Origin: Candidatus Krumholzibacteriia bacterium
GTDB lineage: Bacteria > Krumholzibacteriota > Krumholzibacteriia > WVZY01
Reading direction: 5' to 3'
Length of the DNA stretch: 64,000 nucleotides
Assembly: GCA_046754105.1 (NCBI GenBank)
Contig: JBHHVD010000003.1
Span: 2,707-66,706 of the forward strand
The translations under genes and the position numbers were made by a program. Under the pieces are notes generated by a model. That model saw only the letters and a program-made list of their open reading frames with translations, did not search any database and was not told where the DNA came from. Of this stretch, positions 3,912 to 54,397 are shown piece by piece; position 1 is the first letter of the stretch, and every line of letters starts with the position of its first letter.

Positions 3912-6900
3912 CTACTTGACGTGTACCAACTTGCCTCGAAACGTGGACTGCTGGCCGCCCTGGTTGACATTAATGACGAAGAGATAAACACCGTTCGCAA
4001 TCTCATCGCCGTTGAACGTGCGGCCGTCCCAGGCGACGGCGTTCTGCCCGACCGCCCGGGCGCTCGGCGGTATCTGTAGCTTTGCGATCCGACGGCCCCT
4101 GGTCGTAAAAATATCGATCGTGCCGCCGGAGATCGCCACCTCGGCCGTGTACACGAACTGCGTCCGGTCGCTGAACGGATTGGGATAGGCAACGACATCG
4201 AGTACCCCCAACCGTGACGAGACCACGATCTGATAATCGAAACTGGCGTTGTCGATGAATACGGAGAGCGTATGCGGCCCCTGCGGCAGATCCGCAGAGA
4301 ATGCGACGAGCCACGTGGAATCCCCCCGTGCCGGCTGCGTTACGTTGGCGGGGACGGCGGTGCCGTCGATTTTGACCCGGATGAGAGACGTATCGAGGGC
4401 GACGGGCGACGTCAGCTCGAAGACGTAGTCCGCCCTGGGCGGCACCACGTCACCGCTCACCAGCGGGCGGCCGCCGGCCTTGAGGACGACGCCCAGGTCG
4501 ACCTTGAGCACGAACTCTCCGGTCATCAGGAAATTGGTTCCCGTCGTGTCCACCGCCTGATGGGCGCGCAGGATGATGTCGTACTCGCCCGGCACGATCT
4601 TCGTCCGGAAGGTCACCTCGTACTGGCGGGCGGCGTCCAGCCCCTGGTCGACCAGCGGCGTGACGGTTAACTGGTTCGATGCGTCCACGCCCGCGATATC
4701 CAGCGTGATGTCCTCGATCGCCACCTCGTCGGTGATGATCGCCCGCACGGCGACGGAATCGCTGGCCCCGATCGTGGTGAGCGACGAGCCTGACTGCACC
4801 GGATTGCCGTCTACCGTCACCTCGAACCGCGGCGGCCCGGCGTCGATACGCAGCAGCGGGTCACCCAGGATATGGTAACGGAGGATCATTCCCACCGCGC
4901 CCTTGCCCGGACCCGAACTTCCCCGCCTGGAGAGGTTCACGAGCTCCGCGTCGGTCATGATCTCGCCGAAGATCCAGCGCGCCTGCGAGCGGCCGCTCGC
5001 CAGGTCGGGATCGGTCCGCGGATTCTCGTAGAACTGCTTCGCGATGATATCGGTGTACATCTCGTTCGTGCTGAGGTACTCGAAGCCCGTGCTGCCGTAG
5101 GTGCTCACCGCACCTCTGTTTTCCAGAAGGAGCAGCAGCTCGGAGAGGCTATCGCCGTTGGGGCCGTTGTTGGCAAATCGATTGCGTTCCCGGTGAACCG
5201 CATAATCGCTCAGGTGGCACCCCATTCCAAACAGGAGGTAGGGGCGGCCGACGTTGAAGCCCCGCGGATTCAGGTAGTCGGGTGTCTCGCCGAGGTTCAC
5301 CGTGCTCGTGAAGAGAAACTCGTGGCAGATCGCGTACCGGTTCATGTGCGCCTGGAAACTGACGATGGTGGCGCCCCTGGCAAGCTCGTCGAGCAGCGCT
5401 GGAACGGCGTTGCTGCGCGTGTCCTGCTGCTGGACAAAGGGCGACACACACGTCCCCACGGGTGGGTGCTGGATACGGTTCGACAGGAAGAAACGCACCA
5501 CGTCGAAGCCGTTGGGTATCGAGTTCTCCGTCGTCACCGCCGCCGCCTGCTCGGCCCTTTCGAAACCGGCTTCCGCGGGCTGGTTGCACGTGATGGAGAG
5601 GGACTGGAACGACCACGCGTCATCGGCGATTCGGATCATACGCCGCCGCCAGAAATCGCCCGCCGCCGGCCTTTCGAAGGCGAGGATCTTATCGATCATG
5701 CGGCGTATTTCGGTGTCGTTGCCCGCGGGGAGCCTGCCGACGATGAGGCTGGGAATGAAATTCAGGGGGTTTGCCCCGCTGACCGGCGGCTGGTTCTTGA
5801 TGAAATCGTGGTCGAGCATCACGTACCACTTGTCCGAAGTGACGACTTCGTCCTCGTTGAAACCGGCACCGACGAACTCTGTGAACGACTCGGTCGGGAC
5901 GAAATTAACTCCCGACTGGCCGACGTGCACGCCCTTGTTGTCCTCGCTGGCGTCCCCGACCAGCACCACGAAACTGGCGTTCCCCTTCTCGAAGAAGTGG
6001 CGCACGAAGCGGCGAATGGCCCGGGGATGATTCACGCCTCCGTTGAACTCGTCGAAGATCTCCTCCACGTCCGCCATCAGCACCCGGTACCCCTGCGCCT
6101 TGCGGTAGTCGACCCATCGCTGCATGCGCCCGAGGTAATTCTTGTGGGACACCACGACGACGTCCACGCCGGCCTCGGCCGGGTTGCCGATCAGGCCGCT
6201 CGGCACGTCCGCGATGACGTCGCCCCCCGTTATCTCTTTGATCTTGTCCAGCGGCGTTGCGATGTAGCGTCTCTGGGAAGACAGTGTTTCCCGAAACGAC
6301 AGCACCTGGCCGCCGCCGGCCGGCGTGAAGTGACCCGCGGTGAGCTGGCAATCCAGCGGCGCCAGGGGATCGGTTATGTCGAAGAGCATCACGTCGGTAC
6401 GACTGAGCCCTGTCACGACGAGGCTCGTGTCGCCGGCGAGCGCGGCGGAGTGGAAATCCAGCACGTTGCCCTTTGCGCGGTATGGCGAGCGGTACTCGAC
6501 ATCGAACCAGTTGAGGAGCACGTCGAGGGACGATACCTGGTTACCGGGGTTCGGTTCGATACGGAAGGTGTTGATGCCCTCGACCAGGGCGCTTGCCGGT
6601 ATCAGCCCCGAATCGTAGTCCACCAGGCTGTTCGTGGGCACGGAAACGCTGTTCAGGACCGTGGTCCCTCGGGTGTTGATAATCTTGAGGTCGATGCCGC
6701 GCGTACTAATCTGCAGGTTGGCGCCCAGGAAGCGGGCCTTGAGCCGAAACTGGCTGCCGCCTCGGACCGCATCGAGCGAGAATGGCGCTGAGAAGGACTG
6801 CAGAAACTCGCCGTGGTAGTAGTAGAAATCCCGTTCGAAAGGCGGCGTTTTCTCGCGGAACCAGAGGTCCTTTTCGAAATGCCCGGTGACGGGGAACGAT

Positions 6901-8072
6901 GCCGCGGTCGTGTCTCCGGACACGAATCCGGGCGCTACACTCTTCGGACTCATGCGCGGGCCGGCGGAGGCACCGAGCCAGTAGATATTGTCGTCCGTGA
7001 ACTTCTGGATCGGGTCGTCCTGTAGCGTGTCCTCGCGAAGCGCCTGCCCGTAGAAGATCACGTAGTCGCTGCCGTCGAACTCACCCGCTGTGCCGGCGGG
7101 ATCCTCGGCCACCTTGTAGCCCACGTCGACGATACGCTCGGCCAGGCCCACGTCATCGTAGGCTCTCTTGAACAGGTGCAGATCCCCCGTGGCCGTCCCG
7201 GCAGGGAATCCCCCGGCGATGGCGGACGCCGCGCTCACCCGGTGCATGCGGCTCTCTCTGACCCGCAGCTTGACCACGGGCCCGGCGATCGCCCGCGCGC
7301 TTCGCGCCGATCGGCTGCTGCCCTCGAACCGCGACGGGGCGGCCCGCCAGCCCCTGCCCTGGGCCGGATTGACCACCATCTTCGAGAGAATGCGGTCCCA
7401 GACCGCCGACTCCGGCACCGGCCGCAGCACTTCCCCCCGCCCTCTCCCCGTGCGTGTTTCAAACGTCACTTCCACCCGTATCACCGTGGCCACGACGGTC
7501 TCTCCCGTCGCAGGATCGTACGCCACGGGATCCAGCCGCAGGGACAGCACCCGCTGGTGCCGCACGCGGCCGACCCCGGCGTCGGCAACACGGATCGTGT
7601 AGCCCCGCCTCCGGTAGATCGCGTCATCGATGGAATACGTCTCGGAGGTGGTGACAAAGTCATTCCCGTCTCGTACCGACACCGGGGACGGCACCGGCTC
7701 GAGCACGTGGGCGCCCAGGGGCTCGGAGCGCACGACCGTGTGGCGGATCGAGTAGCCTCCGCGGGGCGGCAGCGCCACCAGGAAGTAGCGACCGGGCAGG
7801 CGCGGCTCGCCTTCTCCGGAGAGGGTGCCCCAATCCGGTATCTCCAGCCGTTCGGTCCCCGCCAGGAACGGCGACGCCTCGAAACGGGCCCCGTCCGCCG
7901 TCACCTCGAACACCAGGCGCGACTGACTCGACGAGACCACCTGGACGGCGGCCGTTGCGGGCGTCACGAGGGCGGCGGCCAGGTACAACAGGGTGCAGCC
8001 AACCGCCAGGGATGCGCACAGCCCGCGGGGTGGCGAAACGACAAGACCGCGCATAAAAAGAGGACCTCCCAA
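3912..8072 (-). CDS. Secreted peptidase C25 (gingipain-like) family protein with C-terminal T9SS type-A sorting domain
   Basis: 1386 aa with an N-terminal signal peptide. The region VVVSHKNYLGRMQRWVDYRKAQGYRVLMADVEEIFDEFNGG matches the start of the C25 catalytic domain. A candidate clan-CD Cys lies in LLFGMGCHLSDY. The C-terminus YPNPFSDRTQFVY...WDGRTFNGDEIANGVYLFVI matches Por_Secre_tail / FlgD-Ig-like. Confidence 0.6.
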   Translation of the reverse strand: MGGPLFMRGLVVSPPRGLCASLAVGCTLLYLAAALVTPATAAVQVVSSSQSRLVFEVTADGARFEASPFLAGTERLEIPDWGTLSGEGEPRLPGRYFLVALPPRGGYSIRHTVVRSEPLGAHVLEPVPSPVSVRDGNDFVTTSETYSIDDAIYRRRGYTIRVADAGVGRVRHQRVLSLRLDPVAYDPATGETVVATVIRVEVTFETRTGRGRGEVLRPVPESAVWDRILSKMVVNPAQGRGWRAAPSRFEGSSRSARSARAIAGPVVKLRVRESRMHRVSAASAIAGGFPAGTATGDLHLFKRAYDDVGLAERIVDVGYKVAEDPAGTAGEFDGSDYVIFYGQALREDTLQDDPIQKFTDDNIYWLGASAGPRMSPKSVAPGFVSGDTTAASFPVTGHFEKDLWFREKTPPFERDFYYYHGEFLQSFSAPFSLDAVRGGSQFRLKARFLGANLQISTRGIDLKIINTRGTTVLNSVSVPTNSLVDYDSGLIPASALVEGINTFRIEPNPGNQVSSLDVLLNWFDVEYRSPYRAKGNVLDFHSAALAGDTSLVVTGLSRTDVMLFDITDPLAPLDCQLTAGHFTPAGGGQVLSFRETLSSQRRYIATPLDKIKEITGGDVIADVPSGLIGNPAEAGVDVVVVSHKNYLGRMQRWVDYRKAQGYRVLMADVEEIFDEFNGGVNHPRAIRRFVRHFFEKGNASFVVLVGDASEDNKGVHVGQSGVNFVPTESFTEFVGAGFNEDEVVTSDKWYVMLDHDFIKNQPPVSGANPLNFIPSLIVGRLPAGNDTEIRRMIDKILAFERPAAGDFWRRRMIRIADDAWSFQSLSITCNQPAEAGFERAEQAAAVTTENSIPNGFDVVRFFLSNRIQHPPVGTCVSPFVQQQDTRSNAVPALLDELARGATIVSFQAHMNRYAICHEFLFTSTVNLGETPDYLNPRGFNVGRPYLLFGMGCHLSDYAVHRERNRFANNGPNGDSLSELLLLLENRGAVSTYGSTGFEYLSTNEMYTDIIAKQFYENPRTDPDLASGRSQARWIFGEIMTDAELVNLSRRGSSGPGKGAVGMILRYHILGDPLLRIDAGPPRFEVTVDGNPVQSGSSLTTIGASDSVAVRAIITDEVAIEDITLDIAGVDASNQLTVTPLVDQGLDAARQYEVTFRTKIVPGEYDIILRAHQAVDTTGTNFLMTGEFVLKVDLGVVLKAGGRPLVSGDVVPPRADYVFELTSPVALDTSLIRVKIDGTAVPANVTQPARGDSTWLVAFSADLPQGPHTLSVFIDNASFDYQIVVSSRLGVLDVVAYPNPFSDRTQFVYTAEVAISGGTIDIFTTRGRRIAKLQIPPSARAVGQNAVAWDGRTFNGDEIANGVYLFVINVNQGGQQSTFRGKLVHVK

Positions 8073-8305: not shown

Positions 8306-8863
8306 CTATTCGGTGCCCGAATACAGTGACTTGATGACGCCCCACGTCGTTTCCTCGACCGGAACCGAGCAGGGGCACGATCCGTCGTCATTGATGCGTC
8401 CGCTGTGGCTCGGCACACCGGTCAAGAGGTTATTGCCACAATCCACGACCTCGATCGTGCCGGAGGGCACACTCGGGTCTCCAGTGATCGGGTACACGCA
8501 GCACGCCGGGGTCCCGCCGCCGAAGGTCACAATCGACAGCACGTGAATCGGTGCGGTCAGGCACTGGCCGTACCCGATGGCCACGCCAGTCTGCGAGCCG
8601 CCGACCGTCACGGGAAACTGCGTCTGGTCCGAGAGAAACGTTACCGTGGCACAGGCGGGCAGGGTCGCCTTGAACTGGATCGCCGTCGCGCCGGTTGTGC
8701 TCACGTGTACGAAGTTCCACGTGTTGGTCGGCAAACCCCCGTCGACCAGGTTGCAGTCCAGGCCACCCGGATCCATAAATATACTGATCACCCCTGCGGC
8801 TTGGCCGAACGCCACCGTCGCCGACAGCATGAGCACGACAGTCAGTAGCAATGTTTTCTTCAT
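8306..8863 (-). CDS. Small secreted Cys-rich protein, subfamily A of the TTWG-x-[VI]KSLY C-terminal-motif family
   Basis: Start chosen at MKKTLLLTVVLMLSATVAFG (signal peptide) with AAGGAG 6 nt upstream. About 8 Cys. C-terminus CSVPVEETTWGVIKSLYSGTE. Paralogous to 10121..10681 and 33426..33983. Confidence 0.7.
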   Translation of the reverse strand: MKKTLLLTVVLMLSATVAFGQAAGVISIFMDPGGLDCNLVDGGLPTNTWNFVHVSTTGATAIQFKATLPACATVTFLSDQTQFPVTVGGSQTGVAIGYGQCLTAPIHVLSIVTFGGGTPACCVYPITGDPSVPSGTIEVVDCGNNLLTGVPSHSGRINDDGSCPCSVPVEETTWGVIKSLYSGTE

Positions 8864-9107
8864 AGACATCTCCTTCGCGGACGAGGCAATCCCCACCAGG
8901 CCCTTTTTGTATAGACGATACCTGCACTCTCTACGGTGCCGATCGCCGCTCAAAATACGCGCCTTACCTTCAAACGGCGGCTACGCGAATGCACAATCAG
9001 GCGGTCTATGGCGACCGCATGCTTAAGTGTTCAACGTGGACTCCGCCGATGTCAAGCACTTTGTGGGAAAGTAGCGGCTATTTGCGCGGGGCGGGCGTGA
9101 TCGTGGC

Positions 9108-9151
9108 CGAAAAACAGCCACCCATGGCGGCGCGCGGCCTGCCATGGGTGG
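9108..9151 (-). terminator. Rho-independent terminator downstream of gene 9183..9737
   Basis: 11-bp inverted repeat CCACCCATGGC / GCCATGGGTGG with a 12-nt loop, followed on the minus strand by CTGTTTTTCGG. Confidence 0.5.
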
Positions 9152-9182
9152 CGTCGGGCGGCAATGAAGCACCTGTGGTCGG

Positions 9183-9737
9183 CTACGGCGCCGCGGTATA
9201 GAGTGCCTTGACCCGTCCCCAGGTCGTGTCCTCGACGGGAACGGTGGCGCAAATCAGCCCTGTCATGCCGATGGCGTTGATGAACTGGTTCGTGGGCCAC
9301 TGGGTGGCTCGGACGGCCCCGAAAATCGGATGAGGGCTTACCACCACCGGCGTATCCGTGACCGAGCAGCCGCTGCAGTTCCAGGTGAACAGGATCGTGT
9401 AGGCTCTGAACTTGCCAAAGACGTTCTGGGGCAGCGACCAGCCCATGGAAATACCCGTGGGCGAGGTACCGAAGGTCACCGGTGGCGTACCGGCGTCGGC
9501 CACCCACGTCATCGTCACGGGAAACGTGACAGCCAGCTCCAGACCCGAGATCAAGTCGTTGAACTGCTGAGCAACCACGAACATCGAATCCAGCCCACCG
9601 GCGGGTGGGCAATTCTTGCTTTCCGCAGTCAGCGCCGTGTCGAAATAGAGCCTCACTGTCGGCGTTTGCGCCTGGGACAGGCCCACGCAAACGGCGAGTA
9701 GCAGCAGTGCTGCCAGCGTCGATCGAAATATCCGCAT
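9183..9737 (-). CDS. Small secreted Cys-rich protein, subfamily B of the TTWG-x-VK[SA]LY C-terminal-motif family
   Basis: Start at MRIFRSTLAALLLLAVCVGLSQA (signal peptide) with a GGTGA-type RBS. Body motif TWVADAGTPPVTFGTSPTGISMGWSLPQN. C-terminus CATVPVEDTTWGRVKALYTAAP. Confidence 0.7.
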   Translation of the reverse strand: MRIFRSTLAALLLLAVCVGLSQAQTPTVRLYFDTALTAESKNCPPAGGLDSMFVVAQQFNDLISGLELAVTFPVTMTWVADAGTPPVTFGTSPTGISMGWSLPQNVFGKFRAYTILFTWNCSGCSVTDTPVVVSPHPIFGAVRATQWPTNQFINAIGMTGLICATVPVEDTTWGRVKALYTAAP

Positions 9738-10048
9738 AGGATCACCTCTCTGACAAAAGCATAACCAGGTTTCTTTCAGGTAACGGGACACACCCGGGCG
9801 GGGACCTATGCAAGAGACGGACCGAATCCCGTCCTCCGGGGGGAGGAATCGAAGGGCGCCGGCCAAAACCAACCGATCCGTCGACCGATCGGGCGAGGCG
9901 CACCCGCACTCACCCCTATGCGGCATTTTTTTCCGGGCCGGGGGTGCGCCGCGATCGGGGCGGACGCTGGGAGGGGAGATCGCGCGCGGGGCGTTGCCGC
10001 ACATCTTTGTGGCAGACTGCAACGTCGACCACCCGCGAGAGGATGGCA

Positions 10049-10086
10049 CAAAAAATGCCCGGCTGCGTCGCTTGGCAGCCGGGCAT
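10049..10086 (-). terminator. Rho-independent terminator downstream of gene 10121..10681
   Basis: 12-bp stem ATGCCCGGCTGC / GCAGCCGGGCAT with an 8-nt loop. The plus-strand A6 run at 10050-10055 becomes a T6 run directly after the hairpin on the minus strand. Confidence 0.6.
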
Positions 10087-10120
10087 CTCGAAGCTACTCG
10101 GGTTGTTTGACGGGAATCGC

Positions 10121-10681
10121 CTATTCGTACAGCGATTTCACCTGGCCCCAGGTGCTCTCTTCCACCGGGATCAGGTTACAGTCACAGTTCTGCGGCGTGC
10201 CGTTGACCGTATTCGTCCGGCCGGCGCCGATGAGCAGGTTGTTCGCACAATCGACAACTTCGACCTCGCCCGACGGAACGTTCGGATCCGCATCTACGAC
10301 AAACGCGCAGCAGAGCGGCGTCGAGCCACTGGCGAAGTAGTTGATCGTCAGAACGTGGTTTGGCGAGGCAACACACGTACCGTAGCCGATCGCCACGCCG
10401 GTCTGCGAGTTGCCGACCGTCACCGCATAGACCGCCGTATCGGACAGGTAAACCGCACCCGTCGTGCTCATACAAAGTGGGGTCTGCGCCCGAAACTGCG
10501 ACGCGCTCGCGCCCGGCGAAAGTGTATGCACCACGAAGATGCTCAGCAATCCCGGCGCAGCATCTACGACGTTACAATCCGCCGCGCCCGGGTCGCCGTA
10601 GGTGCCGATGACACCTGCCTGTCCAAACGCGAGACTCGCGCCGAACAGCATGACTGTTGTCAGCAATATCACCTTTTTCAT
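10121..10681 (-). CDS. Small secreted Cys-rich protein, subfamily A of the C-terminal-motif family
   Basis: Start at MKKVILLTTVMLFGASLAFG with AAGGAG 6 nt upstream. Shares with 8306 and 33426 the motifs DPG(G)ADCN, SQTGVAIGYGTC and PNHVLTINYF. C-terminus CNLIPVEESTWGQVKSLYE. Confidence 0.7.
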   Translation of the reverse strand: MKKVILLTTVMLFGASLAFGQAGVIGTYGDPGAADCNVVDAAPGLLSIFVVHTLSPGASASQFRAQTPLCMSTTGAVYLSDTAVYAVTVGNSQTGVAIGYGTCVASPNHVLTINYFASGSTPLCCAFVVDADPNVPSGEVEVVDCANNLLIGAGRTNTVNGTPQNCDCNLIPVEESTWGQVKSLYE

Positions 10682-11031
10682 GAAACACTCCTTTTGAGTG
10701 AACGGGATGAAAGGCCTCTTGGCCATTACCAATTTCCATTCGCTCAGCCGGTAGCACGCTGGAGATCAAACAAGAGCCTCGCCACCTCGGTACTGACGCG
10801 GCACGAAACTCTCTCGCTGAGGAACCGCCAGCTACCTCCCATTCGAGTGCCGACTAAGGACCTGGACTTCTGGAGCCTGTAGAGAGTAGCATAGGGACGC
10901 CGCGTTTGTCAATGCTCAATCGCGGCCCTCCGGTGCTCCCAACGAACCCAACTCGCCGGAATCCTGTTACGCAATCCCCGCGCCTCGGATCCGCCAGACT
11001 CCATTACAACCTGGAGCCCCGGAAAACCCGG

Positions 11032-11634
11032 TTACTGCGAATACAACGACTTAACCCTGCCCCACGTGGTTTCTTCCGCTGGCACCGCCGGACAAATCAG
11101 CGCTGTCAAACCGACGGCCTGAAATGTCTGGGGGATATTGAAACACGTGTACTGCGGGTTCGTCGGGTTGAACAACGGGTGTCCTGAAACCACTACCGGC
11201 ACACCCATTGCCGTACAGTCGGTACAGATCCACTGGACGAGGACCGTTGCGATGTTGATCGCAGAAAACCCATTCTGCGGAAGCGCCCAGCCCATCGACA
11301 TGCCCGTGGGCGTAGTGCCGAAGGTCACCGGCTGCGTGTCGAGGTCGGCGACCCAGGTCAGACACGCCGAATAGTCAACCTGCACCTCAACGCCCGTTAC
11401 GAAACAGTCAAAGTTGTACGCGACGATGTAGACGCTATCGATCTGCCCAAAAACGCCGGGAGGAATGATGGTCTCCGTCGTCCCGTCGCCTATGATCGGC
11501 GGGCCCGCGGGCGGCGGGTCCCAAGATGCCCTATCGAAGAAAACTCCAACGTAAGGAGTCTGCGCGCTCGCAACAGACGCTCCGACCACAACCAGCGCCA
11601 CAAGCGCGATGACAAACACTTTTACATTCATCAT
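11032..11634 (-). CDS. Small secreted Cys-rich protein, subfamily B of the C-terminal-motif family
   Basis: Start at MMNVKVFVIALVALVVVGASVASA with AAGGAG 7 nt upstream. Body motif TWVADLDTQPVTFGTTPTGMSMGWALPQNGF. C-terminus CPAVPAEETTWGRVKSLYSQ. Confidence 0.7.
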   Translation of the reverse strand: MMNVKVFVIALVALVVVGASVASAQTPYVGVFFDRASWDPPPAGPPIIGDGTTETIIPPGVFGQIDSVYIVAYNFDCFVTGVEVQVDYSACLTWVADLDTQPVTFGTTPTGMSMGWALPQNGFSAINIATVLVQWICTDCTAMGVPVVVSGHPLFNPTNPQYTCFNIPQTFQAVGLTALICPAVPAEETTWGRVKSLYSQ

Positions 11635-11827
11635 TCGGCAACTCCTTTGCTTGCTTGCTGCGTGTCCTAAGTTGCAAATCTGGTTTAGTGCAAAACTCTC
11701 ACCAGCAACAGAACATTGGTCTAGACGGCAAAGCGCCTGATCGGTCACTGCCCAGGGCGCTTTCACTTCTATGCTGCGTCGTGAAACCGCCCGCAAGCGC
11801 TGAATCTGGAAGCTGGATGAACCACCA

Positions 11828-11855
11828 CTGGATGAACCCCTTGGGGTTCATCCAG
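11828..11855 (-). terminator. 13-bp stem hairpin (CTGGATGAACCCC-tt-GGGGTTCATCCAG) 16 nt downstream of the stop of gene 11871..12428
   Basis: Perfect inverted repeat. A partial direct copy CTGGATGAACC lies just upstream at 11812-11822. There is no T-run, so terminator function is uncertain. Confidence 0.35.
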
Positions 11856-11870
11856 CTCAGATTTCAGACG

Positions 11871-12428
11871 CTATTCGCTATAAAGCGACTTAACCCTTCC
11901 CCACGTCGTGTCCTCCACCGGCACGGTGCGGCATACGAGCGCCGTCAAGCCAATGGCGGGATGCAACGTGATCGTGGGCCATTGCGTGAACTGCGGCGTG
12001 GGTGCACCGCTGAACGGATGCTGGACAACCTGGATCGGATCGTCCGGCACCGCACAGTTGCCACAGTTCCACTGGATGAGCGCTTTCGACACAAAGATCG
12101 GGGAGAACCCGTTCTGTGGTAGCGCCCAGCCCATCGACATGCCCGTGGGCGTAGTGCCGATGGTCACCGGTTGCGTCTCCAGGTCGGCGACCCAAGACAT
12201 GGACGCCGGGTAGTTCACCTTGAACTCAATACCGACAACGTTCGTATTGAAGTTGTAGGCGATGAAAAACAGGGAATCTACCAGGCCCACGCCCGGACAG
12301 TTCTTCTGTTCCGGGGTGCCGACTCTGTTGAAGAAGACCCCGATGTAGGGTTGTTGCGCACTCGCCACGGACGCGCCGACCAGGGTCAGCGCCACGAGCG
12401 CGAAGATCAATGTTCTTGCAATTCTCAT
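11871..12428 (-). CDS. Small secreted Cys-rich protein, subfamily B of the C-terminal-motif family
   Basis: MRIARTLIFALVALTLVGASVASA signal peptide. The AAGGAG RBS and about 50 nt of 5' leader are conserved with gene 11032..11634. Body motif TWVADLETQPVTIGTTPTGMSMGWALPQNGF. C-terminus CRTVPVEDTTWGRVKSLYSE. Confidence 0.75.
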   Translation of the reverse strand: MRIARTLIFALVALTLVGASVASAQQPYIGVFFNRVGTPEQKNCPGVGLVDSLFFIAYNFNTNVVGIEFKVNYPASMSWVADLETQPVTIGTTPTGMSMGWALPQNGFSPIFVSKALIQWNCGNCAVPDDPIQVVQHPFSGAPTPQFTQWPTITLHPAIGLTALVCRTVPVEDTTWGRVKSLYSE

Positions 12429-12515: not shown

Positions 12516-13211
12516 TTAGTTACACTTGTGTCCCGGAGGCCCAAAGTGAAACGCGAACCGGCTGAGATCCTGCAGGTTCACGAGTCCATTGATGTCAAAA
12601 TCCGCACAAGTGTCAAACGGCTGCGGCGGGAAAGCAGCGGCAAAGAGCGAAAGGTCGACGAGGTTGACCTCGTTGGTGCCGTCGATGTCCGGGCTGCGAA
12701 CGTTTACCCCGAGGCATTTGGCCGCGGTGCAGCTCACCAGGGGATCCTGGAGCGCGAAACCCTGAACAACGACCGATACACCATCAGCGCAGCCACCACC
12801 GGTGAGCCCACCAAGGCCACCCATGGTCGTCGTGCCCGAAGCGTTCGTCAGCGAATCGGCACCCGAAGAAGCCGAACCGCCACAGAGAACCGCGTCGTTC
12901 AGCGGATCGCAGTCGACGAGCCAGAAATCGGCGCCGGGAATGTTCGGAATCGGCGTCGAGTTCGATTCCAGCACGGTGACACTGATGATAAAACCGATAC
13001 CAGAAGCGAGTCCACCAACCTGATCGTCAAAGGTGTCCGTATCGCCCTGCGGACAAACGAACAACGGGAACGGAGGTCCCGACGCGCCGCCCGTGGCAAT
13101 CAGAGTACAGTTCGAAACGCAAGGATCGATGATCCCCGCGAAGGCTATCCCGTGTATCATTAGCAGCGATGCCGCAAGTAGACAGAGAACAGCCAGCTTA
13201 CCTTTAAACAT
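12516..13211 (-). CDS. Secreted Cys/Gly-rich protein with two C-terminal dockerin-like (EF-hand-like) calcium-binding repeats
   Basis: Start at MFKGKLAVLCLLAASLLMIHGIAFAG with a GGAGGTG RBS. The repeats DIDGTNEVNLVDLSLFAAAF and DFDINGLVNLQDLSRFAFHFG fit the dockerin type-I pattern D-x-[DN]-x-[DN]-G-x-[VI]-N-x-x-D-x-x-x-[LF]. Confidence 0.55.
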   Translation of the reverse strand: MFKGKLAVLCLLAASLLMIHGIAFAGIIDPCVSNCTLIATGGASGPPFPLFVCPQGDTDTFDDQVGGLASGIGFIISVTVLESNSTPIPNIPGADFWLVDCDPLNDAVLCGGSASSGADSLTNASGTTTMGGLGGLTGGGCADGVSVVVQGFALQDPLVSCTAAKCLGVNVRSPDIDGTNEVNLVDLSLFAAAFPPQPFDTCADFDINGLVNLQDLSRFAFHFGPPGHKCN

Positions 13212-13520: not shown

Positions 13521-13596
13521 TGGTGGGCGAAACAGGGCTTGAACCTGTGACCTCCTGCTTGTAAGGCAGGTGCTCTCCCAGCTGAGCTATTCGCCC
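13521..13596 (-). tRNA. tRNA-Val (anticodon TAC), CCA encoded
   Basis: The reverse complement reads GGGCGAATAGCTCAGCTGGGAGAGCACCTGCCTTACAAGCAGGAGGTCACAGGTTCAAGCCCTGTTTCGCCCACCA, a canonical cloverleaf. It is close to E. coli tRNA-Val(UAC) through the D- and anticodon arms. Confidence 0.9.
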
Positions 13597-32680: not shown

Positions 32681-33253
32681 CTAACCCCCTGCCGGCGGTT
32701 TCAGGAGGCGGTCGATCAGAGACACCGCCTGCGCCGGCTCGATCGAAAACCCGTTGAACTGCACGTATCCGTTGCGATCGATGATAATCGCCCACGGGGT
32801 TCCGCCGGCGCGGTAGCGCTTCATGACGATGGAGCCGGTGCCGTTATTACCGGCGTCGTGGCCGACCGGGATGTCCAGGTTGAACTGATCGGCGGTCGAC
32901 TTCGCCTTTTGGGCCGTATTGACCTGGTATCCTTCGAAGACGGTTTGTATGGCGACGAAGACCACGTCCTCGTCGTCGGCGTAGTGTTCCGCAACCGACC
33001 GCAGGGTCGGAAACCCGTGCGAATGGCACCCGGGGCACCACGCCTGGAAGCCGAACAGGTAGACGATTTTTCCTTCGAAATCGGAAACGTCGATGCGCTC
33101 TACGCCCTCGCCGAGGTTGTACCAGTCGGCCACGCCCCAACGAGGCGCCTTCTGACCCAGGATTCCGTACGAATGATGTTGCGATATCGAGATCTGCGGC
33201 ATGGCGGTCACCAGCGTCACCAGGGCAGCGGTCACAATCGGTCGTCGCGGCAT
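32681..33253 (-). CDS. Thioredoxin-fold thiol-disulfide oxidoreductase (redoxin/TlpA-like), membrane-anchored or secreted
   Basis: 190 aa with an N-terminal hydrophobic segment and a WCPGC active site. Confidence 0.75.
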   Translation of the reverse strand: MPRRPIVTAALVTLVTAMPQISISQHHSYGILGQKAPRWGVADWYNLGEGVERIDVSDFEGKIVYLFGFQAWCPGCHSHGFPTLRSVAEHYADDEDVVFVAIQTVFEGYQVNTAQKAKSTADQFNLDIPVGHDAGNNGTGSIVMKRYRAGGTPWAIIIDRNGYVQFNGFSIEPAQAVSLIDRLLKPPAGG

Positions 33254-33425: not shown

Positions 33426-33983
33426 ATGAAGAGATTGCTATTTGTGTCGCTGATACTCGTCGTGGTTCCCGCCGTGGTTTTCGCGCAGGCGGGACAGATC
33501 GGTCTGTTCGCCGACCCCGGCGGCGCCGACTGCAACCTTATGGACACGAGCCCGGGTCCGATCACGGTTTACGTGGTGTTGATCGATCACGGGGGCGCCG
33601 GTGCCTGCGACTTCTCGGTCCGGCCCGGTCCCGGTTTCAATGCCTCTTTCGTCTCGGATACCCCCGTGGTGGGTACAATCTTCGGCACCTCCCAAACGGG
33701 CGTTTCGATCATCCTGGGTGCCTGCCTTACCGAACCCACGCATGTCCTGACGATCAACTACAACGGGTTCGGCGTGTCGTCGACCTGCAGCTCACTCGAT
33801 ATCGGGGACAACGTCAATGTCACACCTCCATCCCCGTCGATCACGACGTGTGTCGGCGCCAAGAACCTGGTGCCCGGCAAGTCGATGTTCGTAAACCCCG
33901 ATGCGTCGTGCACGTGCGCGGTGCCCGTCGAACAAACCACCTGGGGACACATCAAGTCGCTGTATTCCGGCAACCAGCCGTGA
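33426..33983 (+). CDS. Small secreted Cys-rich protein, subfamily A of the C-terminal-motif family (dispersed sixth member)
   Basis: MKRLLFVSLILVVVPAVVFAQAG signal peptide. Motifs DPGGADCN, SQTGVSIILGAC and THVLTINY. C-terminus CAVPVEQTTWGHIKSLYSGNQP. Confidence 0.7.
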   Translation: MKRLLFVSLILVVVPAVVFAQAGQIGLFADPGGADCNLMDTSPGPITVYVVLIDHGGAGACDFSVRPGPGFNASFVSDTPVVGTIFGTSQTGVSIILGACLTEPTHVLTINYNGFGVSSTCSSLDIGDNVNVTPPSPSITTCVGAKNLVPGKSMFVNPDASCTCAVPVEQTTWGHIKSLYSGNQP

Positions 33984-34167: not shown

Positions 34168-34983
34168 TCACGGCCGCGGCGAGCGCAGCCATTCGACGTA
34201 CGCCCACAGCGCGTCGAGGTCGCCGGGCCCGAGACGGTCCGAGAACGCCGGCATGCGGATCGTCGCCCGGTCGAGATAGACGCGCGCGAACGGGCTCTTG
34301 TCGAAGCGGTCGCTGATCCCCCTTTTCACCCACTGGTCGAACTCCCCGCGGTCCCGCACCAGGTCGGGAAAGTCGGATCCGTCCCAGGACGGAATGTACC
34401 CCTTGAGCGAGCCGGGGTTCGGCGGCGCGAGGCGCCCGCCGCTGCCATGGCACCCGAAACAGCCGAGCTCCCTCGCCCGCTCGAAGCCTCGGCGCTCGAG
34501 AGCGCCGGACGGCGCCCCCGCGCCCATCGCGCGTACGAACGCCACCAGGTCGTCGATCTCGCTTTCATCCAGTTTTTCTCCGAAGGCCGGCATCGCGATC
34601 GACGCGTCGTCCCGCGCCGCCCGCCACTCGCCGCTCCGCGCCTTGTCCTCCGGCACCCCATCCCGGATCCACTGCCGGATGAGCTCTTCGCCCATCGCTT
34701 GCGTCTCGCCCGGCAGGCCTCCGGCGTGCCCGCGTTCATGGGCTTCGTGCTCCCCGCCCTCCGTGAAACCGGGCACCGCGGCTTCCCGATGCCCGGGGTT
34801 CGGCACCCCGCCCGTCCCACCGGGCCCGTGACACGCGAAACACCCTTCGCGCTCTGCGATCCTCCGCCCGCGCTCGGAGGCGGGCAGGCGGGTGCGAAAC
34901 AGCGTGGCGCGAAGCGCCACCGCCCCGGCGAGCCCCAGGAGAACAACGGTCGAGATAATCGACGTCAGCAATCGCTTCTTCAT
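34168..34983 (-). CDS. Diheme cytochrome c
   Basis: Start at MKKRLLTSIISTVVLLGLAG (signal peptide). Two CxxCH motifs (CFACHG, CFGCHG), each followed by a putative Met ligand in MPAF. Confidence 0.75.
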   Translation of the reverse strand: MKKRLLTSIISTVVLLGLAGAVALRATLFRTRLPASERGRRIAEREGCFACHGPGGTGGVPNPGHREAAVPGFTEGGEHEAHERGHAGGLPGETQAMGEELIRQWIRDGVPEDKARSGEWRAARDDASIAMPAFGEKLDESEIDDLVAFVRAMGAGAPSGALERRGFERARELGCFGCHGSGGRLAPPNPGSLKGYIPSWDGSDFPDLVRDRGEFDQWVKRGISDRFDKSPFARVYLDRATIRMPAFSDRLGPGDLDALWAYVEWLRSPRP

Positions 34984-35186
34984 GAGCTGGATCCTTTCGG
35001 CGGGCAGTTTCCCGCATGGTACGGTCACCCCGCCCGCGCGCGCAACCCGTTTCAAGACACCCCCACCGGCTCCGCCCGCGGCACGCGCTCGTGGCGCCCC
35101 GTCCCCCTTCCCTATTTCTTGACAGGGATTCTCGATTCCTCCATGCTCGCCGGGCAGACCGAGGTAAACGGTCGGGCAGGAGCCGT

Positions 35187-36995
35187 TTGAAACGATTTCT
35201 CTCACTGAGACTGCTGCTGGCGGGGGCTTCCGCTACGGGGTCGCGTTTTCCGGTAGTGCTCGCCGCTGCCGTGGTCCTGGCCGCGAGCGCGATCGCCCTG
35301 GTGGAGAACGGCGACGACCCGGTTTCCCTGCGGCTGCTCTTCACCTCGCAGTTGGGGATTCCCCTGTTCTTCGCGCTCGCTGTCCTGGTCGAAATCCACC
35401 GCTGGGGCCGGCCACAACGCATTCTCCTCGAGCTCACCGCGCTGGGTGCCCTCGCCGCGTACTATTCGATGCTCCCCGATTCGGTAACACCCGCATCCGG
35501 ACTCCGTCACGTGCAGTTCAACGCGGCGCTGCACCTGCTCGTGGCCGTCCTGCCGTTCGCGGGCCCGAACCGGATCAACGCATTCTGGCAGTACAACAAG
35601 GGCCTGTTCCTCCGATTCCTGACGGCCGTCCTTTACTCGGTAGTGCTCTACGTGGGGCTGGCGGTGGCGCTTGCCGCGATCGACAAGTTGCTCGGTATCG
35701 ACGTCGAAGGCGAAAGCTACCTGCGGTTATGGATCGTTATCGCGTCCATCTTCAATACGTGGTTCTTTCTGGGCGGCGTACCGCGAGATCTCCCCGCGCT
35801 CGAGGAGGCGAAAGGCTACCCGAGAGGCCTCAAGGTTTTCACGCAGTACGTCCTGATCCCGTTGATCGTCGTGTACCTCCTGATCCTCACGATGTACCTG
35901 GGCAAGATCGTGGTAACACGCGTGTGGCCCAGCGGCTGGATCGGATACCTGGTATCCAGCGTCGCGACCGCGGGCATCCTGGCGATGCTCCTCGTTCACC
36001 CGGTGAAGGACGAGACAGAGAACAAATGGGTGCCGACGTTTTCACGGTGGTTCTACGTTTGCTTGAGCCCATCCATCGTTATGCTGCTGCTGGCCGTCTC
36101 GAAACGGATTGGCCAGTACGGATTCACCGAGAATCGGTACTTTCTGCTCGTTCTCGCGGTGTGGCTCGCAGCCATTTCGGTCTATTTCGTGTTCAGCCGC
36201 GCGAAGAACATCAAGTGGATACCGGCGAGCTTGTGCCTGATCGCCTTCGCCACCGCCTACGGCCCGTGGGGCGCCTACGGGGTGGCGCGGCGCAGCCAGA
36301 CGGGCCGCCTCGAGCGCGTGTTGACCGAGACCGGCCTGCTGGTCGACGGCCGCATCCACGAGGCGGCGGCCGCTGTGCCCTTCGAGGATCGAAAAGAAAT
36401 CTCGGCCATACTGAGCTACCTGGTCGCCAGCCACGGCACGCGCTCCATCGAGCCCTGGTTCGACGACGGCCTCGCGGAACTCGACACGCTGCAGCAGGCG
36501 AGTGATCCGTGGGGACGACCCGCCGAACCGCGCGTGCGCGCCGTCATGAGTCGCATGGGAATCAACTACGTCGCCCGATGGCAGGATGCAGACGGCAATT
36601 CGTTTCATCACAACATGGATTACGGCGCCAGGGTCTACGCGATCGACGGCGCGGACTATTATGTAAAACTGACCAACGCGTCGAACTCGAGGACCCTTCC
36701 CGCGCCGGACGACGCCCTCGCAGCCGCCTACGACCCGGACCGCTCGGTGTTTCAAGTCCGAGACGGACTCGACGTCCTGTTAGAGATTCAGCTGGAGCCG
36801 TTGTTCGACCGCATAGCCGGGCACGCGGAAGCGTCCACGGATCGTCCCGGGTATCCACCGGCCGTCATGCGTATCACGGGTGACAACGACCGCGCGAGTT
36901 TGAGCGTGTATTTCAACTCGATTTCCGGAAAACTCGACGGCGGGCTGCGCACCATTACCCGCTTCGACGCGGATTGTTACGTCACCGTGAAATGA
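35187..36995 (+). CDS. Polytopic membrane protein, possibly DUF4153 family
   Basis: About 600 aa with at least 10 TM segments in the N-terminal two thirds and a soluble C-terminal domain. Start placed at a TTG to avoid overlap with the divergent cytochrome gene. Family assignment is tentative. Confidence 0.4.
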   Translation: MKRFLSLRLLLAGASATGSRFPVVLAAAVVLAASAIALVENGDDPVSLRLLFTSQLGIPLFFALAVLVEIHRWGRPQRILLELTALGALAAYYSMLPDSVTPASGLRHVQFNAALHLLVAVLPFAGPNRINAFWQYNKGLFLRFLTAVLYSVVLYVGLAVALAAIDKLLGIDVEGESYLRLWIVIASIFNTWFFLGGVPRDLPALEEAKGYPRGLKVFTQYVLIPLIVVYLLILTMYLGKIVVTRVWPSGWIGYLVSSVATAGILAMLLVHPVKDETENKWVPTFSRWFYVCLSPSIVMLLLAVSKRIGQYGFTENRYFLLVLAVWLAAISVYFVFSRAKNIKWIPASLCLIAFATAYGPWGAYGVARRSQTGRLERVLTETGLLVDGRIHEAAAAVPFEDRKEISAILSYLVASHGTRSIEPWFDDGLAELDTLQQASDPWGRPAEPRVRAVMSRMGINYVARWQDADGNSFHHNMDYGARVYAIDGADYYVKLTNASNSRTLPAPDDALAAAYDPDRSVFQVRDGLDVLLEIQLEPLFDRIAGHAEASTDRPGYPPAVMRITGDNDRASLSVYFNSISGKLDGGLRTITRFDADCYVTVK

Positions 36996-51658: not shown

Positions 51659-51955
51659 ACGGACATCAGCCAACGTCTGATTGACCTGCCCCGTTTCATG
51701 TTGTAAACTAAACCATCACGGTTTCGGCGATGCGTGTCGCCGTTACCGGTTGTTGGCCTGCCCGTAATGATTCTGCATGACTGATACTGTTACTGTACGT
51801 CCCCGGTTCGCCTGGTCCGCGGTTTGGCGTCGCGAATAGAGTGGCTCCGGCGGGCGCCTCGATAGAGGAGGACGGTTATGGGTAGCCTCGACACGTACTT
51901 GCGATGTCCGACATATCAATCACGGCCCGCCCGCCGGGGGTCTCTTTCCCGGTCG

Positions 51956-53476: not shown

Positions 53477-53491
53477 CCGTGGGAAATGTTT

Positions 53492-54388
53492 TCACCGCAG
53501 GCACCAGTGGCGGACTCCCTGGGTCTCCAGGAACTCCTCGGCGCCCTCCCCGTGCAGCATGGCGAGTGTGGCCAGCAGTCCCGCCTCCGTGCAGCATTCC
53601 GCGGCCACCGTTACAGAGCGCGGGGCTCTTATCACCGGCCAACCCGTTCGCGGATCGAGTACGTGCGAGTAGCGCACACCGTCTTTCAAGATGAAACGTG
53701 CCGCATCCCCGCTCGTCGCCACGCCCCCGCGCCGAAGCTCGAGGATGCCCGTTGCGTCCAGCGGCACATTGGGGTTTTCGATGCCGACCTGCCAGGGCTT
53801 GCCGTTTGGGCGCAGGCCGCTCACAAACAGGTCGCCCCCGAAGTTCACGAGCGTGCTCGACGCCGTCTCCGCCCTCAGCAGGCCCGCCACGCGGTCGACG
53901 GCGTATTCCTTGCCGATGCCGCCGAGGTCGATTTCCATCCCCGCGGGCAGCTCGAACCACGGCCTCGTCCAGCGGCTCTTCTCCCAACCGACGAATCGGA
54001 GCTGCTTTTTGACCTTTGCCTTCGAGGGCACGCGGTCACTACCGTCGAACTTCCACACGTTCCTCAGCACGCCGGAGGTGACGTCGAATCGGCCGTCGCT
54101 CAGGTCGTAGCACTTCTGCGCGAAATCGAGAAGGCCGGCGAGCTCATCATCTACGCGCACCGGCCTGCCGACTGCATTGTTTATCTTGTAGATGATGTTG
54201 TCGTCGCGGTAGCGGCTGAACTTTCGCTCGATGCGGAAGGCTTCCGGCGCCGCGATATCCAGCAGGCGCCGGGCCTCTTGCCGGTCCGGCACGGCCATGA
54301 GCACTTCGCAGGGGCTGGCCATGGCCATAAAGGTGCCGGACCAGTGGTCCCCCTTTTGCTCGAGACACGTGTCACCGGCCGCGGACAT
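53492..54388 (-). CDS. apbE: FAD:protein FMN transferase (ApbE family)
   Basis: Motifs FMAMASPCEVL, SEISRINN-like (SRYRDDNIIYKIN) and LGGIGKEYAVD, with a C-terminal Mg/FAD-binding region. Confidence 0.9.
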   Translation of the reverse strand: MSAAGDTCLEQKGDHWSGTFMAMASPCEVLMAVPDRQEARRLLDIAAPEAFRIERKFSRYRDDNIIYKINNAVGRPVRVDDELAGLLDFAQKCYDLSDGRFDVTSGVLRNVWKFDGSDRVPSKAKVKKQLRFVGWEKSRWTRPWFELPAGMEIDLGGIGKEYAVDRVAGLLRAETASSTLVNFGGDLFVSGLRPNGKPWQVGIENPNVPLDATGILELRRGGVATSGDAARFILKDGVRYSHVLDPRTGWPVIRAPRSVTVAAECCTEAGLLATLAMLHGEGAEEFLETQGVRHWCLR

Positions 54389-54397
54389 GGGCTGGAC

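What the first reader, a model, noticed from the sequence alone, without database searches (positions are those of the whole stretch)
8306..12428. Tandem array of five secreted Cys-rich paralogs in two unrelated subfamilies sharing one C-terminal tail (sixth copy at 33426..33983)
Six proteins of 184-200 aa each have a Sec signal peptide and a mature N-terminus starting with Gln. Subfamily A (8306-8863, 10121-10681, 33426-33983) carries DPGG-[AL]-DCN, SQTGV-[AS]-I and HVL-[ST]-I plus about 8 Cys. Subfamily B (9183-9737, 11032-11634, 11871-12428) carries TWVAD...TQPVT-x-GT-[ST]-PTG-[IM]-SMGW-[AS]-LPQN. Their bodies show no similarity to each other, yet all six end Cys-x(1-3)-Pro-[VA]-E-[EDQ]-[TS]-T-W-G-x-[VI]-K-[SA]-L-Y followed by 1-6 residues and the stop. 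The shared part is short, terminal and lacks a TM helix or basic patch, so it is unlike PEP-CTERM, GlyGly-CTERM, LPXTG or T9SS CTDs. It behaves like a recognition tag or shared final structural element that I do not recognise. Strong AAGGAG RBSs and individual terminators suggest independently expressed, abundant extracellular proteins.
Basis: seen in the sequence. Interest (0 to 1): 0.85.

Follow-up and report, generated by a model that had tools for sequence, protein, structure and literature searches.

The report
Cohesin-like proteins with portable C-terminal tag
Six secreted proteins in this uncultured bacterium are one family with a cohesin-type fold, and their shared 16-residue tail appears to be an undescribed C-terminal address tag, also found on many unrelated secreted proteins in three little-known bacterial phyla.

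Summary
The six ORFs, their signal peptides, motifs and shared tail are real. The window is from a Candidatus Krumholzibacteriia MAG.

That does not explain the tail:
- It lies outside the fold, with low pLDDT.
- It starts at the module's last conserved Cys.
- It is conserved as peptide, not as DNA.

In a truncated scan of 185,579 genomes, 115 of 121 pattern matches lie within 15 residues of a stop. 96 of these are on non-cohesin proteins (CHRD, LTD, NHL, β-helix, PepA-like, "choice-of-anchor"), mostly in Eisenbacteria, Krumholzibacteriia and Latescibacteria.

Within the cohesin-like family (2,725 clusters), 126 of 137 newly returned top representatives end in the tail. All six long tail-less ones end in a T9SS CTD.

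No Pfam or NCBIfam model matched the tail, and no searchable paper contains the motif strings tried.

Best reading: a new short C-terminal sorting or anchoring tag, here on single-cohesin "mini-scaffoldins" next to a dockerin-like protein. The machinery that reads it is unknown.

The parts
8306..8863 (-). A1: secreted single-module cohesin-like protein (185 aa) with C-terminal tag
9183..9737 (-). B1: cohesin-like protein, B subtype (184 aa) with tag
   Evidence: ACE5EO_00835.
10121..10681 (-). A2: cohesin-like protein, A subtype (186 aa) with tag
11032..11634 (-). B2: cohesin-like protein, B subtype (200 aa) with tag
   Evidence: ACE5EO_00845.
11871..12428 (-). B3: cohesin-like protein, B subtype (185 aa) with tag
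33426..33983 (+). A3: sixth, dispersed cohesin-like paralog (185 aa) with tag
   Evidence: Lies next to a thioredoxin-like oxidoreductase.
8306..8362 (-). Tag of A1: PVEETTWGVIKSLYSGTE plus stop
   Evidence: pLDDT below 50 in the model.
9183..9239 (-). Tag of B1: PVEDTTWGRVKALYTAAP plus stop
10121..10168 (-). Tag of A2: PVEESTWGQVKSLYE plus stop
11032..11082 (-). Tag of B2: PAEETTWGRVKSLYSQ plus stop
11871..11921 (-). Tag of B3: PVEDTTWGRVKSLYSE plus stop
   Evidence: pLDDT about 61-63.
33924..33983 (+). Tag of A3: PVEQTTWGHIKSLYSGNQP plus stop
12516..13211 (-). Secreted Cys-rich protein with a C-terminal dockerin-like two-repeat module (about 12516-12704); candidate ligand of the cohesin-like modules. 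It has no tag.
   Evidence: Repeats DIDGTNEVNLVDL and DFDINGLVNLQDL. Profile against PDB sequences: 5 of the top 6 hits are dockerins, best 2y3n_B E 0.009. No Pfam hit. Orthologs lie next to cohesin-like genes in L001, L003, L082 and L059.
3912..8072 (-). PorU-like C25 peptidase with its own FlgD_ig / T9SS-type CTD, immediately downstream of the array. Association conserved in Krumholzibacteria; functional link unproven.
   Evidence: Peptidase_C25 1.6e-52, Propeptide_C25, FlgD_ig. NCBIfam PorU 193.5 bits, below the 420 cut-off. Same position in L001, L003 and L082.

Best explanation
The six genes encode Sec-exported, disulfide-containing proteins that each consist of one cohesin-fold module. 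A and B are divergent subtypes of one family. After the module come a short Pro/Val/Glu linker and a separable extreme-C-terminal tag, P-[VAT]-E-x-[ST]-T-W-G-x-[VI]-K-[AS]-L-Y-(usually R or E)-COOH.

The tag is a lineage-wide portable C-terminal targeting or anchoring signal of Eisenbacteria, Krumholzibacteriota and Latescibacterota. It sits on many unrelated secreted proteins and takes the place that a T9SS CTD, PEP-CTERM, MYXO-CTERM or LPXTG signal occupies on related proteins elsewhere.

Proposed working:
1. Sec export and signal-peptide cleavage before the conserved Gln. The signal sequence is shown by sequence; cleavage is inferred.
2. Folding of the cohesin-like sandwich, with the tag left free. 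This rests on a predicted structure.
3. Recognition of the free C-terminal tag by an as yet unidentified envelope component, which delivers or tethers the protein at the cell surface. This is inferred from the choice-of-anchor pattern.
4. Capture by the displayed cohesin-like module of a partner such as the dockerin-like protein encoded next to the array. This would make these proteins analogues of single-cohesin anchoring scaffoldins. It is inferred and weakly supported.
For: One family, cohesin fold:
- hhalign of cores without signal peptide and tail: 97.9%, E 5e-13.
- A/B intermediates exist.

The tag is separable and not a domain strand:
- pLDDT below 50 (A1) and about 62 (B3).
- T9SS-anchored relatives end the module at the same Cys and continue with Ig domains plus a CTD.
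- In multi-module proteins the tag occurs once, at the end.

The tag is portable:
- 115 of 121 DNA-pattern matches in genomes are within 15 aa of a stop; 73 have exactly one residue after the Tyr.
- 96 are outside the family. 71 of the 78 complete ones have signal-peptide-like N-termini.
- Positions outside the searched pattern are also conserved: P, V, P, V, E upstream, and R before the stop in 55 of 94.

Choice of anchor:
- Carrier bodies match PEP-CTERM PepA and ScyF, choice-of-anchor V, X and J, a MYXO-CTERM family, and the CHRD, LTD and beta-helix families.
- In the cohesin-like family, 126 of the 137 newly returned top representatives end in the tag and 3 more in near-variants. All six long tail-less ones have Por_Secre_tail/FlgD_ig.
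- Both endings co-exist in one chromosome, CP070677.1.

Selection is at the peptide level: 57% of identical-residue codon pairs use different codons.

A dockerin-like neighbour is conserved next to the arrays.
Against: - No machinery was found. Neighbourhoods of 113 tag-bearing loci show no recurrent candidate.
- The adjacent PorU-like C25 recurs only in syntenic Krumholzibacteria and carries a T9SS CTD itself.
- The tag has no TM helix and no folded domain, so no known sorting mechanism applies directly.
- Mutual exclusivity with the T9SS CTD is equally expected if the tag is a docking peptide that binds surface-anchored cohesin-like modules.
- The dockerin assignment is marginal: E 0.009 against PDB sequences, no Pfam hit, and only 2 dockerin-like ORFs among 647.
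- All data come from MAGs.
- My start-codon choice favoured signal peptides.
- Low pLDDT is not proof of disorder.
Confidence: 0.55

Rival explanations
1. The tag is a minimal docking peptide, a 'mini-dockerin', that binds in trans to the cohesin-like modules. Cohesin plus T9SS-CTD proteins would be cell-anchored bases. Cohesin plus tag proteins would be adaptors or shaft subunits able to chain head to tail. Other tagged proteins (CHRD, LTD, NHL, beta-helix and others) would be clients.
For: - The tag and the cohesin-like family are found in the same phyla.
- Tail-less family members are exactly those with a covalent-anchoring T9SS CTD, and they present the module N-terminally on Ig-domain stalks.
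- In the sampled loci there are about 20 cohesin-like ORFs to 87 tagged ORFs, a cohesin-to-dockerin-like ratio, although the sample was selected for tags. Conventional dockerin-like modules are rare (2 of 647).
- The most conserved body motif (LSD...PVTIG.S.TG..G) and the tag are conserved together across A and B.
Against: - It leaves unexplained how tagged clients cross the outer membrane.
- Most family members (126 of 137) would carry their own ligand.
- The strict requirement for the extreme C-terminus (usually Y-R-COOH) suggests recognition of the free carboxyl end, which a docking helix would not need.
- No tagged genes lie next to the T9SS-anchored member examined.
- A dockerin-like partner is encoded next to the arrays.
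- No binding prediction could be run.
Confidence: 0.2
2. The tag is a non-covalent envelope anchor: a short peptide that sticks to membrane, LPS or peptidoglycan by itself, like the C-terminal amphipathic helices of PBP5/6, or that becomes linked through its invariant Lys, like Lpp.
For: - It contains Trp, Tyr and two or three basic residues close to the C-terminus.
- AF2 places a 4-residue helix at T-W-G-R in B3.
- Lys is invariant.
Against: - The helical hydrophobic moment (0.29-0.52) is no better than shuffles, and mean hydrophobicity is about zero.
- Sequence conservation is far stricter than generic lipid-binding helices need (W, G and K are invariant across families and phyla).
- The Lys is not C-terminal as it is in Lpp.
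- This would retain proteins in the periplasm, yet the passenger domains are typical surface or extracellular ones.
Confidence: 0.1
3. The tail is only the conserved last structural element of one domain family and has no independent role.
For: A and B are indeed one family, and the tail is its most conserved segment.
Against: - Low pLDDT, and the tail lies outside the sandwich.
- It is present on 96 non-family proteins with unrelated domains.
- It is absent from internal modules and from T9SS-anchored members, which keep a complete module.
Confidence: 0.03
4. The tag is a cleavage or ligation signal for the adjacent PorU-like C25 peptidase, i.e. a miniature T9SS-type sortase substrate signal.
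For: - The C25/PorU-like gene lies immediately downstream of the array in the window and in L001, L003 and L082.
- PorU is the known sortase for C-terminal signals in the FCB group (established knowledge).
Against: - The adjacency is seen only in loci that share the whole gene order, so it may be inherited synteny.
- The 13 other cohesin-like loci and the 96 other carriers in the scan show no C25 body nearby.
- These genomes have many ordinary T9SS-CTD proteins for such a peptidase to serve.
- The tag bears no resemblance to a CTD.
Confidence: 0.12

Closest known systems
Single-cohesin anchoring scaffoldins such as Ruminococcus flavefaciens ScaE (cohesin plus LPXTG sortase signal; PDB 2zf9)
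   Different: No sequence membership in Pfam Cohesin. The host is a diderm. The tag has no LPXTG, no TM helix and no basic tail. The modules are disulfide-rich. Function and ligand are untested.
T9SS type A C-terminal domain (TIGR04183 / PF18962, FlgD_ig-like)
   Same: A C-terminal signal on Sec-exported surface proteins of FCB-group bacteria. It is interchangeable with the tag within the same cohesin-like family and present in the same genomes.
   Different: The CTD is a folded Ig-like domain of 70-100 aa. The tag is about 16 residues, predicted unstructured, and matches no CTD model.
PEP-CTERM/exosortase, MYXO-CTERM, GlyGly-CTERM and LPXTG sorting signals, and the 'choice-of-anchor' concept of NCBIfam
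   Same: A short, portable, lineage-restricted extreme-C-terminal motif present on several proteins per genome. It is carried by the same passenger families (PepA-like, ScyF-like NHL, choice-of-anchor V, X, J, LTD).
   Different: All those signals are tripartite: motif, TM helix and basic cluster. Here only 0-5 residues usually follow the motif and there is no hydrophobic segment.
Dockerin modules of cellulosomal proteins
   Same: A portable C-terminal module on diverse secreted proteins, found in the same phyla as cohesin(-like) modules and outnumbering them.
   Different: Dockerins are about 60-70 aa with two Ca-binding repeats. The tag has none and is strictly terminal. Binding to the cohesin-like module is untested.
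Outer-membrane-protein beta-signal
   Same: A short C-terminal motif with a conserved Gly and aromatic residues, read at the outer membrane.
   Different: The beta-signal ends in the aromatic residue and belongs to a beta-barrel. Here the Tyr is followed by at least one residue in 111 of 115 cases and the bodies are soluble sandwiches. OMP-like proteins in a related genome end in ...YGF and ...YRF.

Membership tests
Cohesin (fold) | Nine-stranded beta-sandwich jelly roll superimposable on solved cohesin modules | tested here: met
Cohesin (Pfam PF00963, sequence family) | Significant match to the Cohesin profile or to cohesin sequences | tested here: not met
Cohesin (function) | Binds a dockerin module | not testable with these tools
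   There is only contextual evidence: a dockerin-like protein is encoded next to arrays in 5 loci.
T9SS type A/B CTD | C-terminal folded Ig-like domain of 70-100 aa matching TIGR04183 / PF18962 / PF13860 | tested here: not met
   No match in the six proteins. The tag is about 16 aa with low pLDDT. The models do match the neighbouring C25 protein and the tail-less relatives.
PEP-CTERM / MYXO-CTERM / GlyGly-CTERM / LPXTG | Signature motif followed by a hydrophobic TM helix and a basic cluster at the C-terminus | tested here: not met
   Only 1-5 residues follow the Tyr in the six proteins, and 0-15 in 115 genome examples. There is no hydrophobic stretch and no NCBIfam sorting-signal model hit.
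OMP beta-signal | Terminal aromatic residue as the last residue of a beta-barrel protein | tested here: not met
   The Tyr is last in only 4 of 115 cases. The bodies are cohesin-like sandwiches. OMP-like proteins in L124 end in F.
Dockerin (upstream ORF 12516-13211) | Two tandem Ca-binding loop-helix repeats of about 22 residues (D-x-[DN]-x-[DN]-G-x-[VI]-[ND]-x-x-D) | tested here: inconclusive
   Two such repeats are visible and conserved in orthologs. In the PDB profile search 5 of the top 6 hits are dockerins, but the best E is 0.009. There is no Pfam Dockerin_1 hit at E up to 0.01.
PorU, T9SS sortase (downstream ORF 3912-8072) | NCBIfam NF033707 equivalog score of at least 420, with a C25 peptidase domain and a CTD | tested here: not met
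   193.5 bits, below the 420 cut-off. Peptidase_C25 (179 bits), Propeptide_C25 and FlgD_ig are present. It is a PorU-like relative, not a confirmed ortholog.
Type V (FimA/Mfa) pilins | Lipoprotein signal peptide, two transthyretin-like domains, C25-dependent N-terminal processing | tested here: not met

The most novel reading that the evidence does not exclude
The tag is the ligand of the cohesin-like modules. A 16-residue C-terminal peptide would replace the 70-residue dockerin, giving a self-assembling surface system in three uncultured phyla. In it, T9SS-anchored cohesin-like proteins form the base, cohesin-plus-tag proteins chain head to tail as adaptors or fibres, and dozens of tagged enzymes and binding proteins dock as clients. 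This would be a minimal, cellulosome-like or pilus-like architecture with no described precedent.
Probability: 0.2. Interest if true: 0.9.

Novelty: new variant of a known kind. Interest (0 to 1): 0.78.

Why it matters
C-terminal sorting signals (LPXTG, PEP-CTERM, T9SS CTD and others) each led to the discovery of a dedicated envelope machine. This tag appears to have no curated model and does not appear in the searchable literature.

The tag is very strongly conserved: W, G and K are invariant. It marks many secreted proteins, several or more per genome in the sampled genomes, in Eisenbacteria, Krumholzibacteriota and Latescibacterota. It alternates with the T9SS CTD on the same protein family. 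Unlike every known short sorting signal, it lacks a transmembrane segment.

It therefore points either to an unknown outer-membrane sorting or anchoring pathway in diderm FCB-group phyla, or to a minimal peptide-cohesin docking system.

In practice, it gives a one-line rule for predicting the surface and secreted proteome of these uncultured, environmentally widespread phyla. It also defines a large unannotated cohesin-fold family (2,725 clusters at 50% identity).

Tried and rejected
1. Tail-only profile search. Tripled tails ran, but the tail scores only 24-32 bits, so only fragments of 33-84 aa passed E up to 10. This was useful qualitatively but not for counting.
2. Neighbourhood clustering of 647 ORFs from 113 tag-bearing loci found no recurrent machinery. 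The largest cluster is held together by FlgD_ig/T9SS CTDs. The others are kinases, TPR proteins, ECF sigma factors and a small GTPase linked to one carrier family.
3. Radical-SAM adjacency (the idea of a Trp-Lys crosslink) was seen in only 3 loci and is not systematic.
4. Repeated DNA element or terminator as the cause of conservation: rejected by synonymous codon variation and unrelated downstream DNA.
5. Amphipathic-helix anchor: the hydrophobic moment is not above shuffles.
6. Small beta-barrel OMP: suggested only by a weak OMP_b-brl hit (E 0.015) and rejected by the models.
7. Type V pilin and C25 processing: rejected on signal-peptide type and fold.
8. The afdb50 fold library was unavailable.
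9. Literature searches for the motif strings and for these phyla with T9SS, cohesin or dockerin returned nothing relevant.
10. The context of a T9SS-anchored family member (L124) showed no tagged neighbours.

Full report
**1. The observation**

All six ORFs exist at the stated coordinates. Five lie on the minus strand at 8306-12428 and one on the plus strand at 33426-33983. Lengths are 184-200 aa.
- Each has a hydrophobic signal sequence ending A-x-[AG] before a Gln. That Gln is at least 90% conserved in the merged family alignment.
- The subfamily motifs are as described.
- Mature A proteins have 7-8 Cys and B proteins 4-6.
- All six end C-x(2-3)-P-[VA]-E-x-[TS]-T-W-G-x-[VI]-K-[SA]-L-Y plus 1-5 residues. 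A six-frame scan with a looser form of the motif finds these six and one chance match.
- AAGGAG precedes four of the six genes.
- Terminator-like hairpins follow only two genes, and the regional count is not above shuffles.
- Exact matches identify the source as a Candidatus Krumholzibacteriia MAG (ACE5EO_00830 to ACE5EO_00850). All are annotated as hypothetical proteins.
- None of the six matches any Pfam or NCBIfam model.

**2. A and B are one family with a cohesin fold**

- A-profile against B-profile gives Prob 98.2%.
- After removing both the signal peptide and the tail from deeper alignments (26 A and 115 B sequences), the cores still align over 124 columns at Prob 97.9%, E 5e-13. They share ...[WL][LV][SA]D...PVT[IV]G.[ST].TG[VI][AS].G[YW]....
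- P0139 and P0140 are sequence intermediates.
- AlphaFold2 models built from separate alignments are confident: A1 has pLDDT 88 and pTM 0.81; B3 has pLDDT 93.3 and pTM 0.83.
- Sequence-level membership in Pfam Cohesin is not met, so I call the family cohesin-like.

**3. The tail is nevertheless not explained by common descent of the bodies**

- In both models the last 16-20 residues are the only low-confidence part: below 50 in A1, and about 62 in B3 with one helical turn.
- All 141 homologs from two searches carry the tail 1-11 residues from the stop.
- Conservation is at the peptide level. 57% of identical-residue codon pairs among the six window copies use different codons, and the downstream DNA is unrelated.

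**4. The tail is portable**

A tail-only profile is too short to reach significance. Even so, the fragments it retrieved show the tail after NHL repeats, CHRD domains, FN3-like ends and beta-helix repeats.

I then scanned one genome per GTDB species with the back-translated core [ST]-T-W-G-x-[VIM]-K-[AS]-[LF]-Y. I estimate about 17 chance matches for the whole collection (my own calculation from the pattern's information content, not a tool result).
- Of 121 matches inside ORFs, 115 lie within 15 residues of a stop. 73 have exactly one residue after the Tyr.
- The six non-terminal matches are in unrelated taxa such as Methylophilaceae and Patescibacteria.
- Only 19 of the 115 hit the cohesin-like core HMMs. 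The other 96 are different proteins, mostly 165-360 aa.
- 71 of the 78 complete ones have signal-peptide-like N-termini. My start-codon choice favoured this.
- Positions outside the searched pattern are also conserved: P, V/T, P/A, V/T/A and E upstream, and R before the stop in 55 of 94.
- Loci with a named taxon are about 20 Eisenbacteria, 16 Krumholzibacteria and 17 Latescibacteria. There are isolated cases labelled Fibrobacteraceae, Gemmatimonadota, Poribacteria and others, and many loci are unclassified.

**5. What the carriers are**

- Pfam on 74 complete non-cohesin carriers finds CHRD (6), Lamin-tail domain (4), beta-helix (3), NHL, CBM20, CARDB and Big_5.
- NCBIfam finds PEP-CTERM protein PepA (4), PEP-CTERM NHL protein ScyF (3.8e-50), choice-of-anchor V, X and J, a MYXO-CTERM-anchored family and ExeM.
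- These are passenger families that elsewhere end in other C-terminal sorting signals.
- No model matches the tail itself.

**6. Choice of anchor inside the cohesin-like family**

An exhaustive profile search finds 2,725 representative clusters at E up to 1e-3. Most are stand-alone proteins of 180-200 aa. Some are multi-module proteins of 450-3,815 aa with BACON or Ig-like domains.
- Of the 137 new top representatives, 126 end in the tail and 3 more in near-variants.
- In multi-module proteins the tail occurs once, at the extreme end.
- All six long tail-less members end in Por_Secre_tail/FlgD_ig, the T9SS CTD.
- The remaining two tail-less representatives, P0308 and P0369, end in neither and may be cut short.
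- In the T9SS-anchored members the module is complete, keeps the conserved motif and ends at the same Cys. After that Cys come Ig-like domains and the CTD instead of VPVEETTWG....
- Both A-type and B-type modules occur with the CTD.
- Both endings co-exist in one Latescibacterota chromosome.

**7. Surroundings**

- Downstream of the array is a 1,386-aa Peptidase_C25 protein with a C25 propeptide and its own FlgD_ig/T9SS-type CTD. Its best NCBIfam match is PorU, at 193.5 bits against a cut-off of 420.
- Upstream is a secreted Cys-rich protein whose last ~52 residues form two dockerin-like repeats. A profile of three orthologs finds dockerins as 5 of the top 6 PDB hits, the best at E 0.009. Pfam is silent.
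- The order SpoIIE-RuvX-YceG-LarE-dockerin-like-[5 or 6 cohesin-like genes]-C25-MurQ is conserved in L001 and L003. L082, a close relative, has the dockerin-like gene, a B-type cohesin-like gene and C25 in the same order. The dockerin-like gene also accompanies cohesin-like genes in L059.
- In Latescibacterota the copies are dispersed and not near a C25 gene.
- Dockerin-like modules are rare: 2 of 647 ORFs in the sampled loci.
- No other gene recurs next to tagged genes.
- The window also encodes Omp85-family and AsmA-like proteins, consistent with a diderm.

**8. Interpretation**

*Shown:*
- The six proteins belong to one family.
- They have a cohesin fold (predicted).
- The tag is separable and under peptide-level selection.
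- The tag is on many unrelated Sec-type proteins in three phyla.
- The tag is mutually exclusive with the T9SS CTD within the family.

*Inferred:* The tag is a targeting or anchoring signal read through its free C-terminal end by an unidentified envelope component. The window proteins would then be single-cohesin display modules, analogous to ScaE-type anchoring scaffoldins, and the adjacent dockerin-like protein would be a candidate ligand. Confidence is about 0.55.

*Main rival (about 0.2):* The tag is itself the ligand of the cohesin-like modules. This would make a base (cohesin plus CTD), adaptor (cohesin plus tag) and client (X plus tag) assembly. It explains the mutual exclusivity equally well, but not export across the outer membrane, nor why most modules would carry their own ligand.

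*Lesser rivals:*
- A signal for the adjacent C25 peptidase (about 0.12). The adjacency may only be inherited synteny.
- A self-sufficient membrane or peptidoglycan anchor (about 0.1). The hydrophobic moment is not above shuffles.
- Merely the last strand of the domain (about 0.03). This is contradicted above.

**9. Novelty**

No Pfam or NCBIfam (release 20) model matched the tag in any of the 80 tag-bearing proteins scanned. No searchable paper contains the six motif strings tried. Literature searches on these phyla together with T9SS, cohesin or dockerin found nothing relevant.

C-terminal sorting tags are a known kind of feature. This one differs from all described short tags by lacking a TM helix, and from the T9SS CTD by not being a domain. 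I rate it a new variant of a known kind, with a substantial chance that an undescribed pathway or assembly principle lies behind it.

**Caveats**

- Everything rests on MAG sequence and predicted structures.
- The genome scan was truncated, so the numbers are samples.

Noticed in passing
window 32681-33253 (-) and 34168-35205 (-): The dispersed sixth copy (A3) is flanked by a thioredoxin/ResA-like thiol-disulfide oxidoreductase and a cytochrome c protein. This may be relevant to disulfide formation in the 7-8-Cys A subtype.
   Followed up: no
window 51878-60037 (+): A small Omp85-superfamily protein (56998-58275, 425 aa) is surrounded by three large ORFs with no Pfam match (51878-53476, 53486-54817, 58265-60037). 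It is an uncharacterised outer-membrane gene cluster in the same contig as the tagged proteins.
   Followed up: no
window 13521-13596 (-): tRNA-Val (TAC) lies between the dockerin-like gene and the LarE-like gene.
   Followed up: yes
L001 19101-19610 (+): A second dockerin-like paralog lies just after the C25 peptidase gene in a related Krumholzibacteria contig, so the array there is bracketed by two dockerin-like genes.
   Followed up: partly
L052 4154-4843 (-), L115 5814-6479 (-): Two tag carriers appear to have lipoprotein-type signal peptides (...VVSC...LPGC), so the tag also appears to occur on putative lipoproteins.
   Followed up: no
L040, L047, L066, L111: Loci carrying the ~235-aa tag-carrier family whose member L047 matches PepA (L047, L066, L111), plus L040, have a small Ras/Arf-like GTPase gene within a few kb. 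This looks like a family-specific association rather than general tag machinery.
   Followed up: partly
P0241, P0246, L100 3617-5482 (+): Long family members combine several BACON domains with C-terminal cohesin-like modules and the tag. This suggests glycan-binding surface proteins built on the same module.
   Followed up: partly
L124 4425-5471 (-), 11799-13181 (+): Putative outer-membrane barrel proteins in the Latescibacterota genome end in the classical ...YGF and ...YRF. The OMP-type ending in this locus is therefore distinct from the tag.
   Followed up: yes
window 41051-43477 (+): An AsmA/YhdP-like protein (808 aa) supports a diderm envelope with lipid-transport bridges.
   Followed up: no
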